Positions 11,797-50,360 of a stretch of 64,000 bases of DNA are shown here, one piece after another. Position 1 is the first letter of the stretch. Each line of letters opens with the position of its first letter. The stretch is from a virus (taxonomy: Duplodnaviria; Heunggongvirae; Uroviricota; Caudoviricetes). The notes under the pieces were generated by a model. The model made no database searches. It was not told where the DNA came from and worked only from the letters and a program-made list of their open reading frames with translations. The stretch lies in the IMG/VR virus record IMGVR_UViG_2563366947_000002, one strand, 5' to 3'. Both the position numbers and the translations under genes were made by a program.

Positions 11797-12738
11797 TTAA
11801 CTAACAATCCAGTCCATAGCAATAACATCCTCTGGAGCTAAATCAATAGCATGGATTTTCCCGTCCCGGATGGTGCGCCAGTGCTTTCGTGATCCACCTT
11901 CGGGCCATACCCATACACCTTCAGGCCAGGAAGAACGACGACACACTGTTGCGTATCCAGTCCTGATCTTCTCTCTGGCGGTATGTAGTGACAGATTATC
12001 CTTTGGGCTTTCAGGCACAGGATGGTGGATTGCCTGAAACATCCCCATCTTTGGATGATACCAGCGTTTATTGCGTGGTTCTGCCTCCGACATCACCTGC
12101 TTAAAGGCTTTCCGGAAGGGGGCTAGGGCCACAATGGAGCGTCGCGCAAGCAAACCATCTGGAGTTAAAAACTCATGCGTATCGGTGGGAATCCGGTAAG
12201 CGTTGACCAGGTTTCGGCATTTGGCTTCAGTCAGGCCGCATTTCGCCGCCAGCTGGCGGTAGCCAATGTAGCCTTCCGGCATATTGCCTTTCTTTATTTG
12301 CTCGACGGTTTCAGCGACTTTGGACACTTGTGCCGATACTTCGGCTACCTGGGCATTAACAGCGTTGATCCGGCGTTCATGCTCAAGATGCATTTGCGCC
12401 ATTTCAGCCAGGATTTCGGCTTTTGATTTTAACGGTCCCCTGGCATTCTCCAGTTCGCGCCAGCGGTCCACCAGCCGGGCGGTGAATTCCGGAGAGAGCT
12501 GTGCGACGACAATGATACTATCGCGCTTGCCTTGTTCGCCTTCGAAGACATAGGCTTTTGTGTATTTATTAGGGCTAAGTGATTGATTATTCTCAACTGT
12601 AGCCAATGGCGTATGTTGGATAACACCTTTAGCAACAAGTCTTTCGATGCTGCGTTTAACATCAGAGTGACGACTTCCCACCAGTTTCGCGATCTCAATA
12701 CTGGTCATTGTCGCTTTGCGAGAGATGGGCAGATTCAT
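11797..12738 (-). CDS. antirepressor-like protein with C-terminal small RR..W..G..W / DW-ending domain
   Basis: 313 aa; ATGA overlap with upstream icd-like ORF; paralogue of 49085..49792 plus 48888..49088. Confidence 0.45.
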   Translation of the reverse strand: MNLPISRKATMTSIEIAKLVGSRHSDVKRSIERLVAKGVIQHTPLATVENNQSLSPNKYTKAYVFEGEQGKRDSIIVVAQLSPEFTARLVDRWRELENARGPLKSKAEILAEMAQMHLEHERRINAVNAQVAEVSAQVSKVAETVEQIKKGNMPEGYIGYRQLAAKCGLTEAKCRNLVNAYRIPTDTHEFLTPDGLLARRSIVALAPFRKAFKQVMSEAEPRNKRWYHPKMGMFQAIHHPVPESPKDNLSLHTAREKIRTGYATVCRRSSWPEGVWVWPEGGSRKHWRTIRDGKIHAIDLAPEDVIAMDWIVS

Positions 12739-12953
12739 CAGTGCACCTCCACGCAGTTCATCGGCAGATTCCAGTAATTGAGGATCTCCATCGCATCAAG
12801 AGTGAAGCGTGCGGCAAAAATGCAGGGTTCTTCAGGAAGGTATGAACGAGCTTCTGCTTCGGTAGCAGCCATTACGCAGATATACAGGTGTTTTTGGCAG
12901 GAATAGAAACGCCAGATAAATTCAGAATGAGTTGGGGTAGGGATAGTAGCCAT
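12738..12953 (-). CDS. Icd-like small protein (positional)
   Basis: 71 aa with EFIWRF motif shared with paralogue at 49792..50015; AAGGAGG SD. Confidence 0.4.
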   Translation of the reverse strand: MATIPTPTHSEFIWRFYSCQKHLYICVMAATEAEARSYLPEEPCIFAARFTLDAMEILNYWNLPMNCVEVH

Positions 12954-13133
12954 ATTGGCAGCCTCCTTTTGCTAATTTAAGGAGCTACCGCGTGAGGTTC
13001 CAATCTCAATGGCGGTAGCACTGACTGGGTTGGAACTACCGGCGCAAAAGGGAACCGGCCTGCCTTTCGGCAGCCCAGCCAGCACTACCATTGATCTCTG
13101 AGCTAAACGCTACGTATGGCTGTGCGATGGCAT

Positions 13134-13175
13134 GACACAAAAAAAGACGCTTTCGGCGTCTGTGTCGCCTTTTGC
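13134..13175. terminator. bidirectional intrinsic terminator in icd/ant leader
   Basis: GACGC-tttcg-GCGTC hairpin with A7 upstream and overlapping GGCG...CGCC hairpin with TTTT downstream. Confidence 0.55.
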
Positions 13176-13265
13176 ATTATCCGGGGTTCCAATCCCGGCA
13201 CCCGTTTTTCTAAGGTGCCGTAGAAATATACCCCACGATAATGCCAGGGCGCAACAGTCAGTATT

Positions 13266-13433
13266 TTATGCTTTGGCGGATTTTTTCCGGGCTTGCTTGC
13301 AGGCGTAGGCCATTGCTTTAGCTTTCACTTCATCCAGCTTCCCGGTGATCACTTCTTTTCCGAGAGTGACAAACCAGTCATAGCAACCGCCAGTAATGTT
13401 CTTGATTTGAAAGTTGAGGTAGCGAACAGTCAT
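13266..13433 (-). CDS. small protein (55 aa), unannotated in ORF track
   Basis: ATG with GGGGG SD; MTVRYLNFQIKNITGGCYDWFVTLGKEV...; ends upstream of terminator at 13134. Confidence 0.3.
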   Translation of the reverse strand: MTVRYLNFQIKNITGGCYDWFVTLGKEVITGKLDEVKAKAMAYACKQARKKSAKA

Positions 13434-13753
13434 TTTGACACCCCCAGCGCGAGTAAAGAATGCAGATTATCGCGTGAGTGGTGGACGACGAGTGATGGGA
13501 AAAGACTGTAGTTGTTCATAGTGTAGTGACTCCTTGCTTTCGGAGCCGCCATCGACTGTTCCACGGTCTGGTGGCGGCGCAATAAAGGCTGGAACACCGT
13601 GAGTCAACGGGGGCTTTTCAGCCACCTATATTGCACCGCCATAGGTATGGCGGCGGCAATAATACGAAAAACTAAACAGTTTGTCTCAAAAAGTTGACCG
13701 GTGTGCCAATCGGTAGTGAATGTACATCGGGGAAATTCACAATTCAACTTAAA

Positions 13754-13771
13754 ATGTTAGAAAACTAATTT
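13754..13771 (+). promoter_or_regulatory. putative repressor operator (17-bp motif copy)
   Basis: ATGTTAGAAAACTAATTT; one of 11 or more related copies. Confidence 0.5.
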
Positions 13772-14343
13772 ATCATTTCAATCTCCATCTGATACAACGC
13801 CATTTCATCGGCATTGTGCCGTATGAAATCTGCTTTTCCGCCTATTTTTCCATCAGCATGAACAGGGACCAGCCAGGGATATTGTTCTCGGACCTCGGCT
13901 GGCGCTGCGTACTGGTGGTGCCATTTACACAAAGGGAGGACATATTTATGCGCGTTCTCTGCCGTTCTCCCGAAGATATGGTGCAGGGATACTACTGGGC
14001 TATGTTGCCCGTGAATATGGCAGGCAATGCAGGGGAGAGTACCGATAGCGGTCTGTATCCGGCGTTCATCGGCTGTGAGTGATCTGCCCTTCAGGCCGCG
14101 TGACGTGCGTGTTTTTTTGGACGGAGCGGATACAGCTTTCTCTTTTCTCCGCTGGTCATATTGCTTTGCTTTTTCAATTTTTTTTTGCCGATATTCAGGC
14201 GATGCGGCTTTTTCTCTCGCTCGCTGCTGCTGGCGTTGAGCTTGTTGAAGGCGCTTTGCCCTTTGTTCCTCTCGCCAGGCTGGGTCAGCCAATTTTTGCA
14301 TGGCTTTTTGTCTCTGTTTCTCCCAATAACTCTGTTTCTGCAT
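13765..14343 (-). CDS. Ref-like HNH endonuclease with basic low-complexity N-terminus
   Basis: 192 aa; K/R/Q-rich N-terminal 90 aa then CIACHIHGQHSPVVSLHHIFGRTAENAHKYVLPLCKWHHQ HNH motif. Confidence 0.5.
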   Translation of the reverse strand: MQKQSYWEKQRQKAMQKLADPAWREEQRAKRLQQAQRQQQRAREKAASPEYRQKKIEKAKQYDQRRKEKAVSAPSKKTRTSRGLKGRSLTADERRIQTAIGTLPCIACHIHGQHSPVVSLHHIFGRTAENAHKYVLPLCKWHHQYAAPAEVREQYPWLVPVHADGKIGGKADFIRHNADEMALYQMEIEMIN

Positions 14344-17487: not shown

Positions 17488-17511
17488 TCAAATCATTTAC
17501 GCACTCAAAAT

Positions 17512-17545
17512 ATGTTAGAACATTGATTTTAGTTTTCTAACATAT
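17512..17545. promoter_or_regulatory. putative operator pair (inverted)
   Basis: ATGTTAGAACATTGATTTTAGTTTTCTAACATAT upstream of 17585 gene. Confidence 0.5.
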
Positions 17546-17584
17546 TATTTTACCGCTCGGAACAAAACAGAGTCGGTATACATT

Positions 17585-27903: not shown

Positions 27904-27969
27904 ACAAAAAATCACAGTTCGATCCTTTACTCACTCTGTTATTCGACATAAATTTGTCATAGTAATTTT

Positions 27970-27986
27970 ATGTTAGAAAACTAAAT
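27970..27986 (+). promoter_or_regulatory. putative repressor operator
   Basis: ATGTTAGAAAACTAAAT, 12 bp upstream of 27999 start. Confidence 0.5.
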
Positions 27987-33855: not shown

Positions 33856-33931
33856 TGGTGGCCCCTACCGGACTTGAACCGGTGACCGTGCGATTATGAG
33901 TCGCCAGCTCTAACCACTGAGCTAAGGGGCC
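33856..33931 (-). tRNA. tRNA with CAU anticodon (Ile2/lysidine-type or Met)
   Basis: 76 nt with encoded CCA; 5' GGCCCCTTAGCTCAGTGGTTAGAGC and anticodon loop CTCATAA closely resemble E. coli ileX. Confidence 0.85.
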
Positions 33932-34051: not shown

Positions 34052-34215
34052 CATGAGTTCCTGAACGCAGCTTTAATAATCGGCAATAGCAATACCACAG
34101 CTACTGAAACCAGTGCCCCATCAGCCAACACCGACATCACTTTGCTGGTGAAATCCACCAGCACGGACAAAACGAGAAAACCAATGGCGCACGCAATACG
34201 CGCCTTGCCAATCAT
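34051..34215 (-). CDS. small membrane peptide (54 aa), second gene of TerB-like operon
   Basis: TAATG overlap with TerB-like gene; MIGKARIACAIGFLVLSVLVDF...; not in ORF track. Confidence 0.4.
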   Translation of the reverse strand: MIGKARIACAIGFLVLSVLVDFTSKVMSVLADGALVSVAVVLLLPIIKAAFRNS

Positions 34216-34649
34216 TACAGATAATCTTCCACACGAAGGCCCAAACGACGGCCTACTTCTTCCAGTACTTTGTGTTCTGCTGGCTCGATTTCACCGTCCG
34301 CTTCTGCAATCGTCAGCATGTTAACGAATACTTCTTCCGCTTCTTTTGGATCATTTTTGATATCTTCAATTTCGCGAAGGATATTCATGCGACCAACACG
34401 GAAACCAGCTTCCAGTTGCTCAGTAAAACGGGTGATTGTTGCGGTAATTTCGTTGCCAAAATGACTTAAGCGAGGATTAGAGCGGACAAGCTGATCAAGT
34501 TTCGCTGTTTCTTCCTTTTCGATTTCACCATCTGCGGCAGACACCAACAAACAGCCACCGATAATGGCCTCCATCAGATCGCGATTCTCAACCCTTTTCA
34601 GCTCTACTTTTGCTGAAGCGACTTTCTTACCGAAAAATTTACCGAACAT
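34215..34649 (-). CDS. TerB-like tellurite-resistance-domain protein (TciA-like)
   Basis: 144 aa; LMEAIIGGCLLVSAADGEIEKEE and TIAEADGEIEPAE repeats typical of TerB; adjacent to tRNA cluster as tciA is in P1. Confidence 0.65.
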   Translation of the reverse strand: MFGKFFGKKVASAKVELKRVENRDLMEAIIGGCLLVSAADGEIEKEETAKLDQLVRSNPRLSHFGNEITATITRFTEQLEAGFRVGRMNILREIEDIKNDPKEAEEVFVNMLTIAEADGEIEPAEHKVLEEVGRRLGLRVEDYL

Positions 34650-35468: not shown

Positions 35469-35544
35469 TGGTGCCGATTAACGGACTCGAACCGCTGACA
35501 TCCTGCTTACAAGGCAGGCGCTCTACCAACTGAGCTAAACCGGC
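35469..35544 (-). tRNA. tRNA-Thr (anticodon UGU)
   Basis: 76 nt; GCCGGTTTAGCTCAGTTGGTAGAGC..., anticodon loop CTTGTAA, T-loop TTCGAGT, encoded CCA. Confidence 0.85.
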
Positions 35545-35546
35545 AT

Positions 35547-35622
35547 TGGCGATGATGGATGGATTTGAACCATCGACCCGTTGATTAACAGTCAACCGCT
35601 CTAACCGCTGAGCTACACCATC
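35547..35622 (-). tRNA. tRNA-Asn (anticodon GUU)
   Basis: 76 nt; anticodon stem GTTGA/TCAAC, loop CTGTTAA, T-arm GATGG-TTCAAAT-CCATC, encoded CCA. Confidence 0.85.
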
Positions 35623-36838
35623 ACTTGCCGGGTACGTCTCCGGCGAGGGCTTCCACCTCCGTATGCTTTTCGGCGCACCGCGCCCTGGCTGCAATTCGGT
35701 AACAGGGGATGCACAACCCTGGCTTCCAGCGTGATTAGCGCCTTCAGCATGACGGGATATACCCGTTACAAGAAATTCCCCCAGGATGCCATTAAGCAAT
35801 GGCTGTTACGCGGGAGGGACGTAACAGGTAAGGGCGCTGACCAGAAAGACCTGACCCTTCTCATTCATCTGGTTAATCACACCAGCGCCCTTGCCTGTTA
35901 TGCCTCCCCGTTCCCTAATACACAGACGGGGACACTCTGCGGTCGATTTTTTGACGGGGGACGACTCATACCCCGTGGCGTCTGGCTTCTTAGGCCGCTA
36001 CCATCATCAGATCATCGTTTGCATTTACTTTAATGGTCGGTTTCTAAACCGCCGCAAAGTCGCTAACCATGACGAAAACCCTAAAAAAGCCCACCCGAAG
36101 ATGGGCAAATACGCTACATCTCACACAAGAAAGAAGCCGACTGCCTGAGTTGGATTCACTTTCAAATGCCCGCTGAAAGGGATCACAAGTCGGCTTCTTT
36201 CTTGATGCGGCACTCTCTCCGCCCGTCACCGCTCTGTCTCGGTTGTCGCGTTTGCCACGCCAGCCATAACGAGGTTTAAAGTCTTTTCACGTTCCCATCA
36301 CTCGACTGCCGTCTGTGGCTGTTCGTTGCAGCGGGGGTGCCTCCCCCTGGGGATATCCCCGGCCTTACCCCATTCTTTCAAGACACAATGCAAGGCCACA
36401 TCCGCATAGGTGCATTACTGCAACATTAAGGAGACTCAGGGCAAAAGGTAACCGCCACAAAAATCCCTATGCCTCCTTAATGTTGAAGATGTGCATTGAT
36501 GATTAGATGCAGCATGTACCGTTACTCTCTGCCGGACCATCATCAATGAACACCTTAAAAAGACCTTCCGTGGCTCAACATGTATTGTCGTTTACTCCGC
36601 AAAGTGCTCTCTCTGAAACCACTTTCCGCACTAAACCTGCTGAACTTTTGCCTGCACAGTGCCAAAGCGTGCTCTTGCGTTACTATACTTTTCTAACGCT
36701 TTAATTTGTTAAATGCTGGTGGGCGAACAATAACCAATAAGTGACTATCAAGCCCAGCAAGCGAAACGTGGGTACCGCCCACCAGCAAGGAAAATTCTAT
36801 GTTAAGTTACCTTCACAATCAACACATTCGAATTGTGA

Positions 36839-36857
36839 TTTTAGATTTCTAACACAT
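36839..36857 (-). promoter_or_regulatory. putative repressor operator
   Basis: TTTTAGATTTCTAACACAT (reverse orientation of consensus). Confidence 0.45.
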
Positions 36858-38065
36858 TATTTCCCGTAAAGATCTTCTACACCCCCATTCTTCTTATCCC
36901 ATTCGTTCGCCCATACCCGGCAAGCGTCAATGATTTCCTGACGACGATCTCCTTGCATGAACGGAATGCTTTCATGGAAACAGCTTGGAATGCAGGCCAC
37001 ACTGAATACAGTATCAAACTCCGTCTGCTTGATTGCCTCCAGCGTCTCCGGACGCATTTTTAATTCATCGATTGGCGCATCCTTTGAGTCCATAATCCGG
37101 CGATATAAGCGCGGAAAATCCGTCTCCAGGTACGCCATAATTTTATCTGCGAGACATTCGTCTATGTCGGTATTCCAGTCCTTTTCGAAGCCCGGCAGGC
37201 GATAGTAAAGCGGCGTTCCCCATACCGATGGGATCACATCCATCGTTAACAGGCGATTGGTTCTGATTTGTTGATGGTAATTAGCCGTCAGCAGTGCTTC
37301 GCCACGCTGCCCAGTTTCCGCAACCAGGCCGTGCGGATACTCATGGATGTAGGCAATGGCATCCCTTCCGTCATACATAAGTGGAAATGTCTCTGGTCTT
37401 TGTCCCATGCCACAAGCACGGTTCAGATCGTGACCAAGCTGTGAGCACTCTCGCTTTAATGTTTCGATAATGCTCTGCGCTGTAGCCAACTTTTTACGCA
37501 GTGTGACGCCTTCGCCTTGATAATCAATGCATTGCTGATTGAGCTTGGTTAAACGCTCTTTTAGTTCCCGGCGCTCTCTTTTCAGCGTGCGGTTATCCTT
37601 CTCCGCAACATCCAGCCGCTTTGTCAGGGTGGGCGGATAGTCTTTTTTGTAACGGTTCAAATCGGCTTCAGCAGATTTACGCAGTGTATTTGCCTGTTCA
37701 AGACGCGCTTCCAGATTGCCGATCTCATTACGCATATTCGTGGCAAATTGATTAACTGCATCACCCAGGCTTTCAACTGTCGCTGATACGCCTGTGACTT
37801 GTGAAAAACGGATCAAGCCATCATTAACGGCTTGTTGGTATTCCTCAAACTGATCCACCAGCTTATTGTAATCAACTGCCCCATCATCAAGCAGCTTGTT
37901 GATTTCCGCCACCAGGTTATCTGTAGTGGCAATGACACTCTCGTGCAGTCGCTTTGACAGGTCATCACCAGGATTCCGTTTCTGTATAAGAGCGATTTGT
38001 GTGCGCAGCGTTTCAATTGCTGTCGAGATAATTTCCAGATTAGAAGTATCAGTGTGTTGACTCAT
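36857..38065 (-). CDS. hypothetical protein
   Basis: ORF track 36857..38080 (GTG); ATG at 38065 also possible; operator copy lies just upstream. Confidence 0.45.
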   Translation of the reverse strand: MSQHTDTSNLEIISTAIETLRTQIALIQKRNPGDDLSKRLHESVIATTDNLVAEINKLLDDGAVDYNKLVDQFEEYQQAVNDGLIRFSQVTGVSATVESLGDAVNQFATNMRNEIGNLEARLEQANTLRKSAEADLNRYKKDYPPTLTKRLDVAEKDNRTLKRERRELKERLTKLNQQCIDYQGEGVTLRKKLATAQSIIETLKRECSQLGHDLNRACGMGQRPETFPLMYDGRDAIAYIHEYPHGLVAETGQRGEALLTANYHQQIRTNRLLTMDVIPSVWGTPLYYRLPGFEKDWNTDIDECLADKIMAYLETDFPRLYRRIMDSKDAPIDELKMRPETLEAIKQTEFDTVFSVACIPSCFHESIPFMQGDRRQEIIDACRVWANEWDKKNGGVEDLYGK

Positions 38066-38086: not shown

Positions 38087-38106
38087 AAATTAGTTTTCTA
38101 ACATAT
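38087..38106 (-). promoter_or_regulatory. putative repressor operator
   Basis: AAATTAGTTTTCTAACATAT. Confidence 0.5.
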
Positions 38107-38178
38107 TTTATTAGTTTGATGACGGTATCGGAAGATGCAATAAACAAAAAACCCGCTAATTGGCGGGTTTTTATGCAA

Positions 38179-46899: not shown

Positions 46900-48340
46900 C
46901 CCCTCTAAACCGTAAAAATTCCGCTATGCGGTACGGTTGAGAGGGTATGGAGAATGTTATTTTCAGCGAAAACCGCCGAGAACCCTCGCCCAGTGCTGGC
47001 GGGGAGGAACGGCGGAAAAGCCCAAAGGGCTTTAAAAAAATCATTACGGTGTTAGCATAAAAGCCTGTATCAATGAGCAATGACTATGTTAAGAGCGACA
47101 AAAGTACGTATATACCCCACTCCTGAACAGGCTGAATTTCTCAACGCCCAGTTCGGTGCGGTGCGTTTTGCGTACAACAAAGCTCTTCACATCAAAAAAC
47201 ATGCTTACCAGCGACACGGAGTAAATTTAAGTCCGCGTAACGATCTGAAACCGTTGTTGTCTGTGGCCAAAAAGTCCCGCAGATATGCCTGGCTCAAAGA
47301 GTTTGATTCAATGGCATTGCAACAGGCGGTAATTAATCTTGATGTGGCATTTTCCAACTTTTTTAATCCGAAGCTGAAAGCCCGGCTTCCGACTTTCAAG
47401 AGAAAGAACGGCTGGCAATCCAGCTATCACTGTGTCGGGATTAAGGTTCTGGATAATGCCATCAAAATCCCCAAACTTTCCCCGATTGAGGCACGCCTTC
47501 ATCGTGAACTTCATGGAAAGCTGAAAAGCATCACTATCACTCGTTCTGCGACGGGGAAATATTATGCGTCGCTACTCTGCGATGATGGCATGGAAACGCC
47601 AGCCAGACCTTCCATGATATCCCGCGTGACGGGGATAGATATGGGATTATCGCACTATGCCATCAAGTCCGATGGGGTAAAAGTTGCTAACCCTCGCCAT
47701 CTCATCAATGCCAGCCGTAATCTGCGACGCAAACAAAAAGCGTTATCTCGCAAGCAAAAGGGAAGCGCAAATCGCAAAAAGGCCAGAATCCGTCTGGCAG
47801 CGTTACACGAACGGGTAGCCAGTGCCCGTGCCGATTTCCAGCACAAGTTATCTCGCGCAATTGTTGACGAAAACCAAGCGGTAATTGTGGAGACACTGAA
47901 AAAAGCCAACATGATGAAAAACCACAATCTGGCGAGAGCGATAGGTGATGCCAGCTGGCACAGTTTCATCGCAAAGCTGGAGTACAAGGCGATGGAAAAA
48001 GGCGTTCACCTGGTAAAACTCGACCAATGGTTTGCCAGTTCGAAAACGTGCCATTGTTGTGGTTACAAAATGCCGGAAATGCCACTTCATAAACGCATCT
48101 GGCGATGCCCGGAATGCAGTATTGAACATGATCGCGACATCAATGCGGCACTCAATATCCGGCAAAAAGGAATACTGGAACTACAGGCGGCGGGACTCGT
48201 CGTTTCTGCCCATGGAGGCCAGCGTAAATCCGTCATACAGACGGTTGCGGCCTAAGAAGTGGGAAGCCTCGCCCGACAGGGCGGGGAGCAGTCACGGGGA
48301 CGATACTACCGTCAAAATCACATACTCCCCATAGTTTGCC
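46900..48340 (+). mobile_element. IS200/IS605-family insertion sequence carrying tnpB only; boundaries approximate
   Basis: Intact tnpB flanked by subterminal imperfect hairpins (CGCC...GGCG near 46986-47003 and CGCCC-gaca-GGGCG near 48270-48287); no tnpA. Confidence 0.6.
47080..48255 (+). CDS. tnpB: TnpB (OrfB) RNA-guided endonuclease-type transposase accessory protein
   Basis: 391 aa; MLRATKVRIYPTPEQ N-terminus, RuvC-like GIDMG, zinc finger CHCCGY...CPEC, C-terminal HDRDINAALNI. Confidence 0.85.
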   Translation: MTMLRATKVRIYPTPEQAEFLNAQFGAVRFAYNKALHIKKHAYQRHGVNLSPRNDLKPLLSVAKKSRRYAWLKEFDSMALQQAVINLDVAFSNFFNPKLKARLPTFKRKNGWQSSYHCVGIKVLDNAIKIPKLSPIEARLHRELHGKLKSITITRSATGKYYASLLCDDGMETPARPSMISRVTGIDMGLSHYAIKSDGVKVANPRHLINASRNLRRKQKALSRKQKGSANRKKARIRLAALHERVASARADFQHKLSRAIVDENQAVIVETLKKANMMKNHNLARAIGDASWHSFIAKLEYKAMEKGVHLVKLDQWFASSKTCHCCGYKMPEMPLHKRIWRCPECSIEHDRDINAALNIRQKGILELQAAGLVVSAHGGQRKSVIQTVAA

Positions 48341-48887: not shown

Positions 48888-49088
48888 TCAAGTCACCATC
48901 CAATCATTACCGATTATATCAGCCGTCGATAAATCAACTTCCCGGATCTGGAGTCCATTAATACAAAACCATCCGGTAGTAGAGTAATTATCAGGCCAGG
49001 CCCATACACCAACACTCCATGCTTTACGGCGGCACACTTCAGCCTGTCCTTCCCTGATTTTTTTTACCGCCTGCATGATGTCCATCAC
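48888..49088 (-). CDS. small DUF2829-like protein (split C-terminal module of antirepressor paralogue)
   Basis: 66 aa; AEVCRRKAWSVGVWAWPDNY ... NDWMVT aligns with C-terminus of 11797..12738 product. Confidence 0.4.
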   Translation of the reverse strand: MMDIMQAVKKIREGQAEVCRRKAWSVGVWAWPDNYSTTGWFCINGLQIREVDLSTADIIGNDWMVT

Positions 49089-49792
49089 TCACCTCCCCAA
49101 CCGATCACCTGGAATTGCCCCATTTTGGGGTGATACCAGCGTTTTCCTCGGTGTTCAGCCTCCGACATCATCCGGTTAAAAGCATTCATGAAGGGAGATA
49201 AGGCCACGATGGAACGACGCGACAATACCCCCTCTGGAGTTAAAAACTCATGTGTATCGGTGGGAATCCGGTAAGCGTTGACAAGGTTGCGACATTTGGC
49301 TTCAGTCAGGCCGCATTTCGCCGCCAGCTGGCGGTAGCCAATGTAACCATCTGGCATATTGCCCTTCTTGATTTGCTCGACGGTTTCAGCGACCTGGCTA
49401 ACCTTTGACTCAACAGCATGAAGCCGCTTTTGCTGCTGAACTGCATTTGCAGCCATTGCGGCGATCATCTCTATTTCGGTCAACGGCTGGCGTACTTGTT
49501 CTTCCAGTTCGCGCCAGCGGTCCACCAGCCGGGCGGTGAATTCCGGAGAGAGCTGCGCAACGACAATGATACTGTCACGCTTGCCTTGCTCGCCTTCGAA
49601 GACGTAGTGTGAATTTTTAACTTTAAATCCTAAGTTATTGATATTTTCGGAAACCTCCATTGGAGGAAGTGGAATAACACCTGATTTACTCAAGCGTTCA
49701 ATAGTGCGTTTAACGTTATCCGGGCGACTTCCCACCAGCTCCGCGATCTCAATGCTGGTCATTGATGGCTTTTCAAGAATGCAGATATCCAT
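49085..49792 (-). CDS. antirepressor-like protein (paralogue of 11797..12738)
   Basis: ATGA overlap with icd-like ORF; MTSIEIAELVGSR... and central region near-identical to first copy. Confidence 0.45.
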   Translation of the reverse strand: MDICILEKPSMTSIEIAELVGSRPDNVKRTIERLSKSGVIPLPPMEVSENINNLGFKVKNSHYVFEGEQGKRDSIIVVAQLSPEFTARLVDRWRELEEQVRQPLTEIEMIAAMAANAVQQQKRLHAVESKVSQVAETVEQIKKGNMPDGYIGYRQLAAKCGLTEAKCRNLVNAYRIPTDTHEFLTPEGVLSRRSIVALSPFMNAFNRMMSEAEHRGKRWYHPKMGQFQVIGWGGE

Positions 49793-50015
49793 CAATGTGC
49801 CTCCGCAATGCCGGGATTGGTAATATTGCGATACCAAGGATTAGTGTTTGGTTGTGGGGAAGTAGAGAAACGACCAGTAAGAACACCATACTGATCAGGG
49901 ATCAGAGAACGGGCTTCTTTTTCGGTTGCGGCAATTGCGAAGTGATCGCAATGTTTTTGCAGGGAGTGGAAACGCCAGATAAATTCCGGGCGCGAGCAAG
50001 GATTGGCATTAACCA
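49792..50015 (-). CDS. Icd-like small protein (paralogue)
   Basis: ATG at 50015 with GAGG SD; MVNANPCSRPEFIWRF...; ORF track extends into leader. Confidence 0.4.
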
Positions 50016-50360
50016 TAGTTACGGCCTCATTCGTAGGTTTAACAACCTGCGCCCCCGCTGCTAAACGGGTGGCAGGACGTGACGGGGTTAGCAGACTGGC
50101 ACGAATGAAACCAGCAGGCCGAAGCCTCCCCATCACGCCCCACCATAATTCGGGCGTAACGTGGTGTTACGGACACAAAAATACCGCAATATCGGATATC
50201 TGCGGTTGTCCGCATTCGTATTCAGGCTGCTAAACCCGGTCGCAGAATTTGCTACGACGGCATGAATATAAGCCTGAAAACATGGAAGATCAACTAAAAA
50301 TTTCAGCAATGGATGACTTCAGTCGATGATGCAGATCATACATTCCGATTTAGAAACAGC

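What the first reader, a model, noticed from the sequence alone, without database searches (positions are those of the whole stretch)
12954..13433. Structured leader with bidirectional terminator and small ORF upstream of icd/ant module 1 (candidate c4-like regulatory RNA)
Between the operator at 13754 and the icd-like start at 12953 lie a 55-aa ORF (13266-13433), a strong minus-strand terminator (13134-13160), and a leader rich in short inverted repeats (GGTAGTTCCAA...TTGGAACC, CTGCC-GAAA-GGCAG). In P1 the equivalent region encodes the c4 antisense RNA that gates icd/ant expression. This architecture fits a small RNA or attenuator, though I cannot identify c4 by sequence.
Basis: inference. 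Interest (0 to 1): 0.5.

Follow-up and report, generated by a model that had tools for sequence, protein, structure and literature searches.

The report
P1-type C4 antisense RNA immunity switch

Summary
The window is a D6-like P1-family phage-plasmid of E. coli. All features below are on the minus strand.

- **C4 antisense RNA:** Rfam finds it at 13095-13008 (76.7 bits, gathering score 45).
- **IsrK-type small RNA:** Rfam finds it at 13218-13140 (62.5 bits).
- **Pairing sites:** C4 loop b' (CCUUUUGC) and junction a' (GUUCCAA) are exactly complementary to a1/b1 inside IsrK. They are also complementary to a2/b2 just after C4. b2 overlaps the Shine-Dalgarno sequence of the Icd-like gene, which overlaps the antirepressor gene.
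- **Layout:** it matches the annotated P1 immI region almost base for base.
- **Comparative support:** across 34 related leader haplotypes, a' and b' co-vary with their targets in seven specificity classes. Window and phage D6 differ by one coordinated swap at a1, a' and a2.
- **Prior report:** a c4 homologue was already reported in D6-like plasmids.

Two extras emerged. A third, sub-threshold C4-like RNA (13646-13567) has its own targets over the ribosome site of a 29-codon ORF. That ORF is coupled to the conserved 55-aa ORF. Separately, Gifsy-1 'orf45' is a C4 homologue, so IsrK appears to be the a1b1 partner of C4.

'Bidirectional terminator' is not supported.

The parts
13750..13764 (-).
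   Evidence: The motif recurs 10 times in the window at up to 3 mismatches, against 3.2 expected and 0 of 100 shuffles reaching 10. It is conserved in all diverged lineages. It resembles the P1 C1 operator core CTCTAATAAATTT; that comparison is from memory and from the P1 record.
13719..13747 (-). Candidate sigma-70 promoter of the whole leader: -35 TTGAAT (13747-13742), 17-nt spacer, -10 TACATT (13724-13719)
   Evidence: Hexamers and the 17-nt spacing are kept in three diverged lineages (TTGAGT/TACATT, TTGATC/TAAATT) while the spacer sequence diverges. This is a phylogenetic footprint, not a mapped start site.
13567..13646 (-). Second, unannotated C4-like RNA (C4#2), with loop UGACUC (13606-13601) and junction UGUUCCA (13596-13590)
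   Evidence: Rfam C4 scores 40.2 bits, E 7.5e-6, below the gathering score of 45. It folds on its own into the C4 three-way shape with a GAAA hairpin: -36.2 kcal/mol, z -4.6. It is 90-96% conserved where the flanking leader is 52-62% identical. In pHX138.33gt_1 its homologue sits directly before an Icd-like gene.
13527..13563 (-). Targets of C4#2: a2'' UGGAACA (13563-13557) and b2'' GAGUCA (13532-13527), the latter overlapping the Shine-Dalgarno sequence AAGGAG (13535-13530)
   Evidence: This is the only ordered a->b pair for these words in 64 kb (expected 0.09 anywhere). It starts 3 nt after C4#2, with a 24-nt a-to-b gap identical to that of C4#1. It is invariant in all lineages except one decayed Salmonella plasmid.
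13430..13519 (-). 29-codon leader ORF (MNNYSLFPSLVVHHSRDNLHSLLALGVSK). Its stop overlaps the start of the 55-aa ORF (AUGA)
   Evidence: The frame is kept through in-frame indels of 3 and 9 nt in p23AR1183B, and the same AUGA overlap is kept. It occupies the position of the Icd-like gene of pHX138.33gt_1. It has no Pfam, NCBIfam or PHROG match.
13266..13433 (-). 55-aa ORF of the finding: a conserved small protein of unknown function
   Evidence: phrog_7786 at 3.6e-43. The substitution pattern indicates purifying selection. Among phage records it is found only in D6. It is also present in plasmids that lack the isrK/C4/icd/ant cassette.
13225..13254 (-). Candidate promoter of the IsrK-like RNA: -35 TTGCGC (13254-13249), 18-nt spacer, -10 TATATT (13230-13225). 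The start site would fall about 13218
   Evidence: Hexamer positions are conserved in P1-like relatives while the spacer diverges. The Gifsy-1 isrK has TTGACA-17-TATATT at the same place. Similarity to RCS47 and JL22 begins at 13219, which marks a module boundary.
13140..13218 (-). IsrK-type small RNA carrying a1 UUGGAAC (13192-13186, hairpin loop), b1 GCAAAAGG (13175-13168) and an intrinsic terminator (stem 13161-13145, then U7)
   Evidence: Rfam isrK RF01394 scores 62.5 bits against a gathering score of 50. The terminator scan is. a1 and b1 are exact complements of C4 a' and b'.
13008..13095 (-). C4 antisense RNA (C4#1): closing stem, GAAA hairpin, hairpin 2 with loop b' CCUUUUGC (13051-13044), and single-stranded junction a' GUUCCAA (13036-13030)
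   Evidence: Rfam C4 RF01695 scores 76.7 bits against a gathering score of 45. Structure covariation over 22 distinct relatives: 95.6% of cells paired, 16 of 23 pairs changed on both sides, score 0.667 against 0.255 shuffled and at most 0.15 when slid.
12962..13003 (-). Targets in the icd/ant mRNA: a2 UUGGAAC (13003-12997) and b2 GCAAAAGG (12972-12965), the latter overlapping the Shine-Dalgarno sequence AAGGAGG
   Evidence: Exact complements of a' and b'. They co-vary with a' and b' in 34 of 34 haplotypes. The layout matches the annotated P1 a2/b2 sites.
12738..12953 (-). Icd-like gene (71 aa)
   Evidence: NCBIfam NF033153 phage_ICD_like scores 49.4 bits against a cut-off of 25. It is annotated Icd-like in D6 and in RefSeq plasmids.
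11797..12738 (-). Antirepressor (Rha/Ant family, 313 aa). Its start overlaps the icd stop by one base
   Evidence: Pfam Phage_pRha scores 32.6 bits against a cut-off of 29.9. It is annotated 'anti-repressor Ant' in D6.

Best explanation
The interval is the RNA control region of an immI-type immunity module of a D6-like P1-family phage-plasmid.

Shown by sequence analysis:
- The leader encodes a C4 antisense RNA at 13095-13008.
- Its hairpin-2 loop b' and its single-stranded junction a' are exact complements of two site pairs on the same transcript. a1/b1 lie in an upstream IsrK-type small RNA that ends at the intrinsic terminator. a2/b2 lie just downstream of C4, with b2 covering the ribosome-binding site of icd.
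- The stop codon of icd overlaps the start codon of the antirepressor gene.

Inferred from P1/P7 c4 and from Gifsy-1 IsrK:
- Transcripts that read through the IsrK terminator are processed to release C4.
- C4 pairs with a2/b2 and blocks icd translation. Through translational coupling and polarity, this also blocks antirepressor synthesis and keeps the prophage repressed.
- The short a1/b1-bearing RNA competes for the same C4 loops. When abundant, it relieves the block and so acts as an anti-antisense (decoy) RNA.
- The a/b sequences set immunity specificity. This element (a = UUGGAAC) should not be cross-controlled at the a site by D6 (a = UUGAGAC).

Upstream in the same leader, a second C4-like RNA (13646-13567) most likely does the same job for a 29-codon ORF. 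That ORF is translationally coupled to the conserved 55-aa ORF. Both are driven from an operator-flanked promoter next to ref.
For: - **Family matches above curated thresholds:** C4 76.7 bits, isrK 62.5 bits.
- **Independent folding** into the family shape, z -5.5, and covariation of the fold.
- **Exact complementarity:** 7-nt a and 8-nt b sites, with b2 over the Shine-Dalgarno sequence. Chance co-occurrence was seen in 3 of 300 shuffles for the whole 64 kb.
- **Window versus D6:** over 331 nt at 98% identity, 6 of the roughly 10 differences are the coordinated swap GGAA->GAGA at a1, a' and a2.
- **Related leaders:** in 34 parsed haplotypes, a2:a' pairs 7/7, b1:b' 8/8 and b2:b' 8/8 in all. a1:a' pairs 7/7 in 33 of 34. 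With one more leader read by eye, a and b types reassort into seven classes.
- **Layout equals the annotated P1 immI:** operator, promoters, a1 (7 nt), b1 (8 nt), C4, a2 4 nt after C4, b2 22-24 nt later, icd about 10 nt later, then ant.
- **Downstream genes:** they match Icd and Rha/Ant families above cut-off.
- **Experimental support in a homologue:** the Gifsy-1 isrK is followed by a 69-bit C4. In that system IsrK supplied in trans activates antirepressor translation 139-fold, and compensatory mutations restore a helix (PMC4825925). By my reading of the numbering, that helix is a1:a'.
- **Prior report:** a c4/icd/antirepressor ImmI-like region was already noted in D6-like pYU39_89 (PMC6799933).
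- **C4#2:**
Against: - No expression data exist for this element. The transcript ends, processing, repression of icd/ant and decoy activity are all inferred by homology.
- Both promoters are consensus matches supported only by conservation.
- The published Gifsy-1 model describes IsrK as opening an inactive mRNA structure. It does not describe titration of a processed C4 RNA, so the decoy wording is my reinterpretation.
- One haplotype (L037) has an a1 that does not match its a' and a2, so a1 pairing may be dispensable.
- The module-1 a1b1 region scores only 22.4 bits on Rfam c4-a1b1, against a gathering score of 46.7.
- C4#2 is below the Rfam gathering score. It exists in a single specificity, so target covariation cannot be tested. 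Its pairings are short (7 and 6 nt), and no conserved a1/b1 partner was found.
Confidence: 0.85

Rival explanations
1. The terminator acts purely as a transcriptional attenuator in the leader. The hairpins only tune read-through into icd/ant, and no trans-acting small RNA is involved.
For: A strong intrinsic terminator sits between the promoters and icd. In Gifsy-1 only a fraction of transcripts read through the equivalent terminator (PMC4825925).
Against: Attenuation alone does not explain why a1/b1, a'/b' and a2/b2 change together across seven specificity classes. It also does not explain why the element between the terminator and icd scores 76.7 bits as C4, with fold covariation. Partial termination is part of the favoured model rather than an alternative to it.
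Confidence: 0.05
2. The 13091-12972 stretch is a protein-coding gene, or at least a functional upstream ORF whose translation controls icd. RefSeq annotates it as the 39-aa 'Ash family protein'. On this view it is not, or not only, an RNA gene.
For: Pfam Phage_ASH scores 33 bits against a cut-off of 26, and PGAP annotates it. In Gifsy-1 an SPA-tagged 'orf45' in the same position is translated and coupled to anrP (PMC4825925).
Against: The ORF that starts at the conserved AUGG of C4 varies from 12 aa to more than 47 aa among relatives, and is 14 aa in P1. The specificity swaps are non-synonymous. Here the ORF stops 18 nt before the icd AUG instead of overlapping it. The Gifsy-1 authors themselves report that the nucleotide sequence is conserved while the amino-acid sequence varies. 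The matches to PHROG 'regulator' families fall inside much longer proteins, which suggests read-through mis-annotations.
Confidence: 0.1
3. C4#2 (13646-13567) is a decaying relic. It would have been left when the isrK/C4/icd/ant cassette was recombined in behind an older C4-icd module, and it would have no present function.
For: Its Rfam score is below the gathering score. The Icd-like gene it precedes in pHX138.33gt_1 is replaced here by a 29-codon ORF. Only one specificity exists. In Salmonella pSa1423-90k the b2''/Shine-Dalgarno site is degraded.
Against: It is an island of 90-96% identity within a leader that is 52-62% identical. Its target words, their spacing and the Shine-Dalgarno overlap are intact in all but one lineage. 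The stem change U-U -> C-G/U-G improves pairing. The ORFs it would control keep their frame and show purifying selection.
Confidence: 0.2

Closest known systems
immI region of phages P1 and P7: c4 antisense RNA with a1/b1 and a2/b2 sites, icd, ant1/ant2 (Citron and Schuster 1990, cited from memory; P1 record NC_005856)
   Same: - Same order of parts: C1-type operator, promoter(s), a1 (7 nt), b1 (8 nt), terminator-like hairpin, C4, a2 a few nt after C4, b2 over the icd ribosome site, and icd overlapping ant.
- Same RNA family by covariance model.
- Specificity is set by the a and b words, as in P1/P7 heteroimmunity.
   Different: - The sequence is too diverged to see by eye.
- The a and b words differ: UUGGAAC and GCAAAAGG here, UUGACAG and GUUAGUG in P1.
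- The a1/b1 part is of the IsrK type, with a canonical short-loop terminator.
- The antirepressor is a Rha/phiP27-type protein, not P1 Ant1/2.
- This element carries a separate, more P1-like immI copy at about 50350-49085.
- An extra C4-like module lies upstream in the same leader.
IsrK-orf45-anrP-isrJ locus of Salmonella prophage Gifsy-1 (Hershko-Shalev et al. 2016, PMC4825925)
   Same: - Same IsrK family RNA with its own promoter and a leaky terminator.
- It is followed by a C4-family element and an antirepressor gene whose Shine-Dalgarno sequence is covered by the b2 word.
- Experiments there show IsrK acting in trans to switch on antirepressor translation.
   Different: - Gifsy-1 has no icd. 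The upstream ORF overlaps anrP directly, whereas here the equivalent ORF stops 18 nt before icd.
- There is no isrJ here.
- The published model does not name C4 or P1.
- The downstream consequence there (AntQ-mediated growth arrest) has no counterpart identified here.
ImmI-like regions reported in D6-like plasmid prophage pYU39_89 (PMC6799933) and annotated in phage D6 (NC_050154)
   Same: This is the same element family (96.6% identity to D6 over the leader). That paper already states that c4, icd and an antirepressor are present, and that there is a second c4 + icd region.
   Different: - Neither record annotates the RNAs.
- The a-site specificity of this window differs from D6.
- The third, upstream C4-like RNA is not mentioned.
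sar antisense RNA / ant of phage P22 immI
   Same: A small RNA blocks translation of an antirepressor in order to maintain lysogeny (summarised in PMC12197685).
   Different: sar is a true cis-antisense transcript from the opposite strand. C4 is encoded on the same strand as its target and pairs through two short loop contacts. There is no sequence or structure relationship between the two.

Membership tests
C4 antisense RNA (Rfam RF01695) - element at 13095-13008 | Covariance-model score at or above the curated gathering score (45 bits) | tested here: met
   76.7 bits, E 3e-13, full-length match to model positions 1-87.
C4 antisense RNA (Rfam RF01695) - element at 13095-13008 | Long closing stem enclosing two hairpins and a single-stranded junction, supported by compensatory changes | tested here: met
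   The minimum-free-energy fold has this shape, z -5.5. Of 23 pairs, 16 show changes on both sides, 95.6% of cells are paired, and the slid controls collapse. Caveat: that alignment was fitted to the model.
C4 antisense RNA (Rfam RF01695) - element at 13095-13008 | Loops a' and b' are complementary to a2 and b2 on the downstream mRNA, with b2 covering the ribosome-binding site of icd | tested here: met
   7-nt and 8-nt exact complements, and b2 overlaps AAGGAGG. They co-vary in 34 of 34 haplotypes.
C4 antisense RNA (Rfam RF01695) - element at 13095-13008 | Encoded on the same strand, upstream of icd and an antirepressor gene | tested here: met
   The Icd-like match (NF033153) scores 49.4 bits. 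The Phage_pRha match scores 32.6 bits.
C4 antisense RNA (Rfam RF01695) - element at 13095-13008 | Released from a longer precursor by RNase P, and represses ant in vivo (a P1 property, cited from memory) | not testable with these tools
   The sequence shows only that the stem is followed by GCCA. There are no expression data.
isrK Hfq-binding RNA (Rfam RF01394) - element at 13218-13140 | Covariance-model score at or above the gathering score (50 bits), including the 3' intrinsic terminator | tested here: met
   62.5 bits, full-length match to model positions 1-77. The terminator was found independently.
isrK Hfq-binding RNA (Rfam RF01394) - element at 13218-13140 | Own promoter giving a short RNA plus a read-through mRNA | tested here: inconclusive
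   TTGCGC-18-TATATT hexamers are conserved in position across relatives and in Gifsy-1. No start site has been mapped.
isrK Hfq-binding RNA (Rfam RF01394) - element at 13218-13140 | Binds Hfq; activates translation of the downstream antirepressor in trans | not testable with these tools
   Known only for Gifsy-1 (PMC4825925).
c4-a1b1 target motif (Rfam RF03163) - region 13231-13178 | Covariance-model score at or above the gathering score (46.7 bits) | tested here: not met
   22.4 bits. Hairpin 1 lacks the b-type loop, and b1 lies 3' of hairpin 2 instead. The a1 and b1 words are nevertheless present and co-vary. The region therefore works like a1b1 but is filed under isrK. Module 2 of the window (50271-50219) does meet the threshold at 54.6 bits.
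C4 antisense RNA (Rfam RF01695) - second element at 13646-13567 | Covariance-model score at or above the gathering score (45 bits) | tested here: not met
   40.2 bits, E 7.5e-6 in a 1.4-kb search. Homologues score 39.7-42.7 bits. Hairpin 2 is shorter than the model expects.
C4 antisense RNA (Rfam RF01695) - second element at 13646-13567 | C4 fold, with loop complements placed just downstream and b over a ribosome-binding site | tested here: met
   The fold has z -4.6. a2'' starts 3 nt after the RNA, the a-to-b gap is 24 nt as for C4#1, and b2'' overlaps AAGGAG.
C4 antisense RNA (Rfam RF01695) - second element at 13646-13567 | Loops and targets co-vary between specificity types | tested here: inconclusive
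   All 24 haplotypes and 31 IMG/VR matches carry one specificity, so there is conservation but no covariation to score.

The most novel reading that the evidence does not exclude
The leader is a two-tier RNA gate that current annotation and Rfam thresholds miss, and it rests on a link the papers I read do not make.

- **First tier:** a third C4-type RNA (13646-13567), with its own specificity, controls a 29-codon ORF coupled to a conserved 55-aa protein. By polarity it may also control how much repressor-regulated transcription reaches the second tier.
- **Second tier:** the isrK/C4/icd/ant cassette.
- **The link:** IsrK, described in Salmonella as a dual-function activator RNA, would be the a1b1 anti-antisense partner of C4. 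Gifsy-1 'orf45'/STnc1160 would then be a C4 RNA. This would merge two systems that the reviews I read treat separately.
Probability: 0.35. Interest if true: 0.5.

Novelty: new member of a known kind. Interest (0 to 1): 0.3.

Why it matters
For the scan, this finding can be closed. The structured leader is a textbook P1-type immI RNA switch, and a c4 homologue had already been noted in D6-like plasmids.

Four points go beyond that.

1. These phage-plasmids are common in E. coli, Salmonella and Shigella. They carry a small combinatorial repertoire of a/b specificity words, which should define who is immune to whom. D6 and this element differ by one coordinated three-site swap.
2. Public annotation calls the C4 gene an 'Ash family protein', and none of the records inspected annotates the RNAs.
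3. A third C4-like RNA falls just under the Rfam threshold.
4. The Gifsy-1 IsrK/orf45 system appears to be the same machine as P1 a1b1/c4. That lets the P1 and Salmonella experiments be read together.

Tried and rejected
- **Energy-based duplex scan.** I scanned the C4 loops against the whole minus strand. It was uninformative, because single 6-8-nt contacts are not unique in 64 kb and the true sites did not rank at the top. I replaced it with an ordered two-site co-occurrence test.
- **Genome-contig scan.** The pattern GCCGGGATTGNNNNCCCG, with 14 specified bases, was far too unspecific for 596 Gb. I obtained Gifsy-1 directly by accession instead.
- **IMG/VR pattern scans for diverged C4#2 relatives.** The first pattern was mis-designed and matched only one indel variant. 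The second found only the same D6-like lineage with the same loops, so no covariation test was possible.
- **a1/b1 partner for C4#2.** UGGCACA and GUCAAC at about 13705-13690 look partly complementary, but they are not conserved in the other lineages. Rejected.
- **The D6 genome paper.** Gilcrease and Casjens 2018 (PMC5800970) is not held, so I could not check what it says about immI.
- **'Bidirectional' terminator.** Rejected.
- **Weak Rfam hits.** The mir-454, SraB and bxd_5 matches (E 6-8) were dismissed as chance.
Full report
**What the window is.** The 1.1 kb around the finding is 99.8% identical to an E. coli O111:H8 plasmid and 96.6% identical to phage D6. It is present in 443 complete E. 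coli records, almost all plasmids. D6 is a P1-family plasmid prophage. All relevant features are on the minus strand. Upstream lies a Ref nuclease gene (13765-14343; Pfam RecA_dep_nuc 118.5 bits). Downstream lie an Icd-like gene (12953-12738; NCBIfam NF033153 49.4 bits) and a Rha/Ant antirepressor (12738-11797; Phage_pRha 32.6 bits).

**Checking the observation.**
- The 55-aa ORF is at 13433-13266.
- The terminator has a stem at 13161-13145 followed by seven U.
- CTGCC-GAAA-GGCAG and GGTAGTTCCAA...TTGGAACC are also there.

The word 'bidirectional' is not supported. The U-run follows the hairpin on the minus-strand transcript only.

**What it is.**
- C4 antisense RNA (RF01695) at 13095-13008, 76.7 bits.
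- isrK (RF01394) at 13218-13140, 62.5 bits.

A second module elsewhere in the window has C4 at 50150-50065 and c4-a1b1 at 50271-50219. C4 folds on its own into the family shape (-46.4 kcal/mol, z -5.5).

**Complementarity.** The hairpin-2 loop of C4 contains CCUUUUGC (b', 13051-13044). The single-stranded junction contains GUUCCAA (a', 13036-13030). Their exact complements occur twice on the same strand.
- UUGGAAC (13192-13186) and GCAAAAGG (13175-13168) lie inside the IsrK-type RNA. These are a1 and b1.
- UUGGAAC (13003-12997) and GCAAAAGG (12972-12965) lie just after C4. These are a2 and b2.

b2 overlaps the AAGGAGG Shine-Dalgarno sequence of icd, whose AUG is at 12953. GCAAAAGG occurs nowhere else on that strand of the 64 kb. 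The ordered a-then-b pair appeared in only 3 of 300 shuffles of the whole window.

**Comparative evidence.**
- **Window versus D6.** Over 331 nt the two are 98% identical. Six of the roughly ten differences are one coordinated dinucleotide swap at a1, a' and a2: UUGGAAC/GUUCCAA becomes UUGAGAC/GUCUCAA.
- **Related loci.** I collected 80 IMG/VR loci through the Icd protein. I also built a covariance model from six C4 sequences. Every locus has a C4 just upstream of icd.
- **Haplotypes.** The 290-nt leaders fall into 36 haplotypes. In the 34 that could be parsed automatically, a2:a' pairs 7/7, b1:b' 8/8 and b2:b' 8/8 without exception. a1:a' pairs 7/7 in 33 of 34.
- **Specificity classes.** Counting L082, which I read by eye, five a-types and four b-types reassort into seven classes. 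This is what selection on RNA-RNA pairing that defines immunity specificity should produce.
- **The fold.** It shows compensatory change: 95.6% of cells paired, 16 of 23 pairs changed on both sides, score 0.667 against 0.255 shuffled and at most 0.15 slid. The caveat is that the alignment was fitted to the model.

**Comparison with P1.** The curated P1 record annotates these parts in order: operator Oc4, promoters P2c4 and P1c4, a1 (7 nt), b1 (8 nt), the 77-nt C4, a2 starting 4 nt after C4, b2 (8 nt) 22 nt further on, icd 10 nt after b2, then ant1/ant2. The window has the same parts in the same order with almost the same spacing. a2 starts 4 nt after C4, the a-to-b gap is 24 nt, and the icd AUG lies 11 nt after b2. 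An operator-like 15-mer (13764-13750) recurs in the window more often than chance allows: 10 matches against 3.2 expected.

**Comparison with Gifsy-1.** In the Gifsy-1 record the experimentally studied isrK (79.3 bits) also passes the c4-a1b1 threshold (48.1 bits). It is followed at once by a 69-bit C4 and then by the antirepressor gene, whose Shine-Dalgarno sequence is covered by the b2 word. That C4 occupies the region called 'orf45' in Hershko-Shalev et al. 2016. The paper reports the following.
- The nucleotide sequence of orf45 is conserved but its amino-acid sequence is not.
- A processed species of about 80 nt (STnc1160) arises from it.
- IsrK in trans raises anrP translation 139-fold.
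- IsrK G28A/G31A are rescued by orf45 C162U/C159U.

By my reading of the numbering, those positions lie in a1 (UUGGCGU) and a' (ACGCCAA). The paper does not mention c4 or P1. Two recent reviews treat IsrK and c4 separately. A study of APSE phages notes that the two co-occur without linking them. I therefore read the IsrK-type RNA here as the a1b1 partner of C4. This reading is an inference, not an established statement.

**Mechanism.**
*Shown by sequence:* the RNA genes, their folds, the complementary sites, the overlap of b2 with the ribosome site, and the one-base overlap of the icd stop and the ant start.

*Inferred from P1 and Gifsy-1:*
- Transcription starts at an operator-flanked promoter (TTGAAT-17-TACATT, 13747-13719) and at an IsrK promoter (TTGCGC-18-TATATT, 13254-13225).
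- Most transcripts end at the terminator, giving the short a1b1 RNA.
- Read-through transcripts yield C4.
- C4 occludes the icd ribosome site and so prevents antirepressor synthesis.
- Excess short RNA competes for the C4 loops and relieves the block.

Both promoters rest on conserved hexamers with diverged spacers. Neither has a mapped start site.

**The upstream half of the leader.** A relaxed Rfam search finds a further C4-like match at 13646-13567 (40.2 bits, E 7.5e-6, below the gathering score of 45). The evidence that it is a working C4-type RNA is as follows.
- It folds alone into the same three-way shape with a GAAA hairpin (z -4.6).
- Its loop UGACUC and junction UGUUCCA have complements at 13532-13527 and 13563-13557. 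The a site begins 3 nt after the RNA.
- The a-to-b gap is 24 nt, the same as for C4#1 and close to the 23 nt of module 2.
- The b site overlaps the AAGGAG of an ORF starting at 13519.
- This is the only such ordered pair in the window.
- In diverged lineages the RNA is 90-96% identical while the leader around it is 52-62% identical.
- In pHX138.33gt_1 and in related E. fergusonii and Shigella plasmids, the homologous RNA sits directly in front of an Icd-like gene, followed by a homologue of the 55-aa ORF.
- In p23AR1183B it precedes the short ORF and the 55-aa ORF with no isrK/C4/icd/ant cassette at all.

The 29-codon ORF keeps its frame through 3-nt and 9-nt indels, and its stop overlaps the start of the 55-aa ORF (AUGA). 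The 55-aa protein is under purifying selection but has no known function (phrog_7786).

The isrK/C4/icd/ant cassette was joined behind it. Similarity to P1-like phages RCS47 and JL22 begins exactly at the IsrK 5' end. Only one specificity of C4#2 exists, so covariation with its targets cannot be tested. A relic remains possible.

**Rival readings.**
- **Pure attenuator.** This does not explain three-site covariation.
- **Ash family protein.** The RefSeq annotation at 13091-12972 passes the Pfam Phage_ASH cut-off. However, the ORF from the conserved AUGG varies from 12 aa to more than 47 aa among relatives and is 14 aa in P1. The specificity swaps are also non-synonymous. It is most likely a translation of the C4 gene, or at most an upstream ORF.

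**Verdict.** The element belongs to known families, and a c4 homologue was already reported in D6-like plasmids (PMC6799933). It is an ordinary but well-documented example. The added value lies in four things: the specificity repertoire, the unannotated third C4-like RNA, the mis-annotated 'Ash' ORF, and the apparent identity of IsrK/orf45 with a1b1/C4.

Noticed in passing
window 12972-13091 (-): RefSeq/PGAP annotates a 39-aa 'ash family protein' that lies entirely inside the C4 RNA gene. It passes the Pfam PF10554 cut-off and hits internal parts of several PHROG 'transcriptional regulator' families. The ORF length is not conserved among relatives (12 aa to more than 47 aa), so these protein families probably contain translations of C4 genes.
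   Followed up: partly
L205 (phage Gifsy-1 NC_010392) 34131-34329 (-): The region called 'orf45' downstream of the Salmonella sRNA IsrK is a 69-bit Rfam C4 match. IsrK itself passes the c4-a1b1 threshold (48.1 bits). The published compensatory mutations fall, by my reading, in a1 and a'. The papers I could read do not connect IsrK with c4.
   Followed up: partly
window 49085-50350 (-): A second, more P1-like immI module: c4-a1b1 at 50271-50219, C4 at 50150-50065, then icd and an antirepressor. Its words are different (a UUAGCAG, b ACGAAUG) and the a-to-b gap is 23 nt. The element therefore carries three C4-type RNAs with three specificities.
   Followed up: partly
window 13590-13596 versus 13030-13036 (-): The a junctions of C4#2 (UGUUCCA) and C4#1 (GUUCCAA) share the 6-mer GUUCCA, so the two RNAs of this particular element could cross-pair with each other's a sites. 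In D6 the C4#1 a' is GUCUCAA and the overlap disappears. The significance is unknown.
   Followed up: no
L037 (IMGVR_UViG_2778261639_000014), leader upstream of icd: This is the only haplotype in which a1 (UUGAGAC) does not match its own a' and a2 (GGAAC type). It is probably a recombinant between specificity classes, and it suggests that a1 pairing is less constrained than a2 pairing.
   Followed up: no
window 13750-13764, 17508-17547, 27966-27980, 36689-36703, 36845-36859, 38094-38108: A TTTTCTAACAT(A/T)TT motif recurs in the window: 10 hits at up to 3 mismatches against 3.2 expected. One pair at 17508-17547 is inverted. It looks like the operator set of the C1-type repressor of this element.
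   Followed up: partly
L210 (phage P1) 670-720, i.e. NC_005856 about 48270-48320: Between b1 and c4, P1 has a hairpin CCGCA(12-nt loop)UGCGG followed by UAUUUUUG. The terminator scan missed it because of the long loop. P1 itself may therefore make a short a1b1 RNA like IsrK.
   Followed up: no
window 13629-13661 (-): The leader just 5' of C4#2 (UAUUGCCGCCGCCAUAC) can pair with the 5' arm of the C4#2 closing stem. This gives an alternative hairpin, which surfaced as a spurious mir-454 hit. It could be a precursor conformation that competes with the C4 fold.
   Followed up: no
L206 (Salmonella pSa1423-90k) about 1500-1700: In this plasmid the operator-like motif and the Shine-Dalgarno/b2'' site downstream of C4#2 are degraded, while the RNA itself is 96% conserved. 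No CDS is listed there, although the PLSDB gene table for plasmids is incomplete. It may be a decaying copy.
   Followed up: no
window 33859-33931, 35472-35544, 35550-35622 (-): Three tRNA genes, as in P1-family phage-plasmids.
   Followed up: no
window 13009-13308 (+), equivalent to D6 orf84: D6 annotates a 99-aa 'hypothetical protein' (orf84) on the strand opposite the IsrK RNA and most of the C4 RNA. The window has only a 58-aa ORF in the same region (13132-13308). It is probably not a gene.
   Followed up: no
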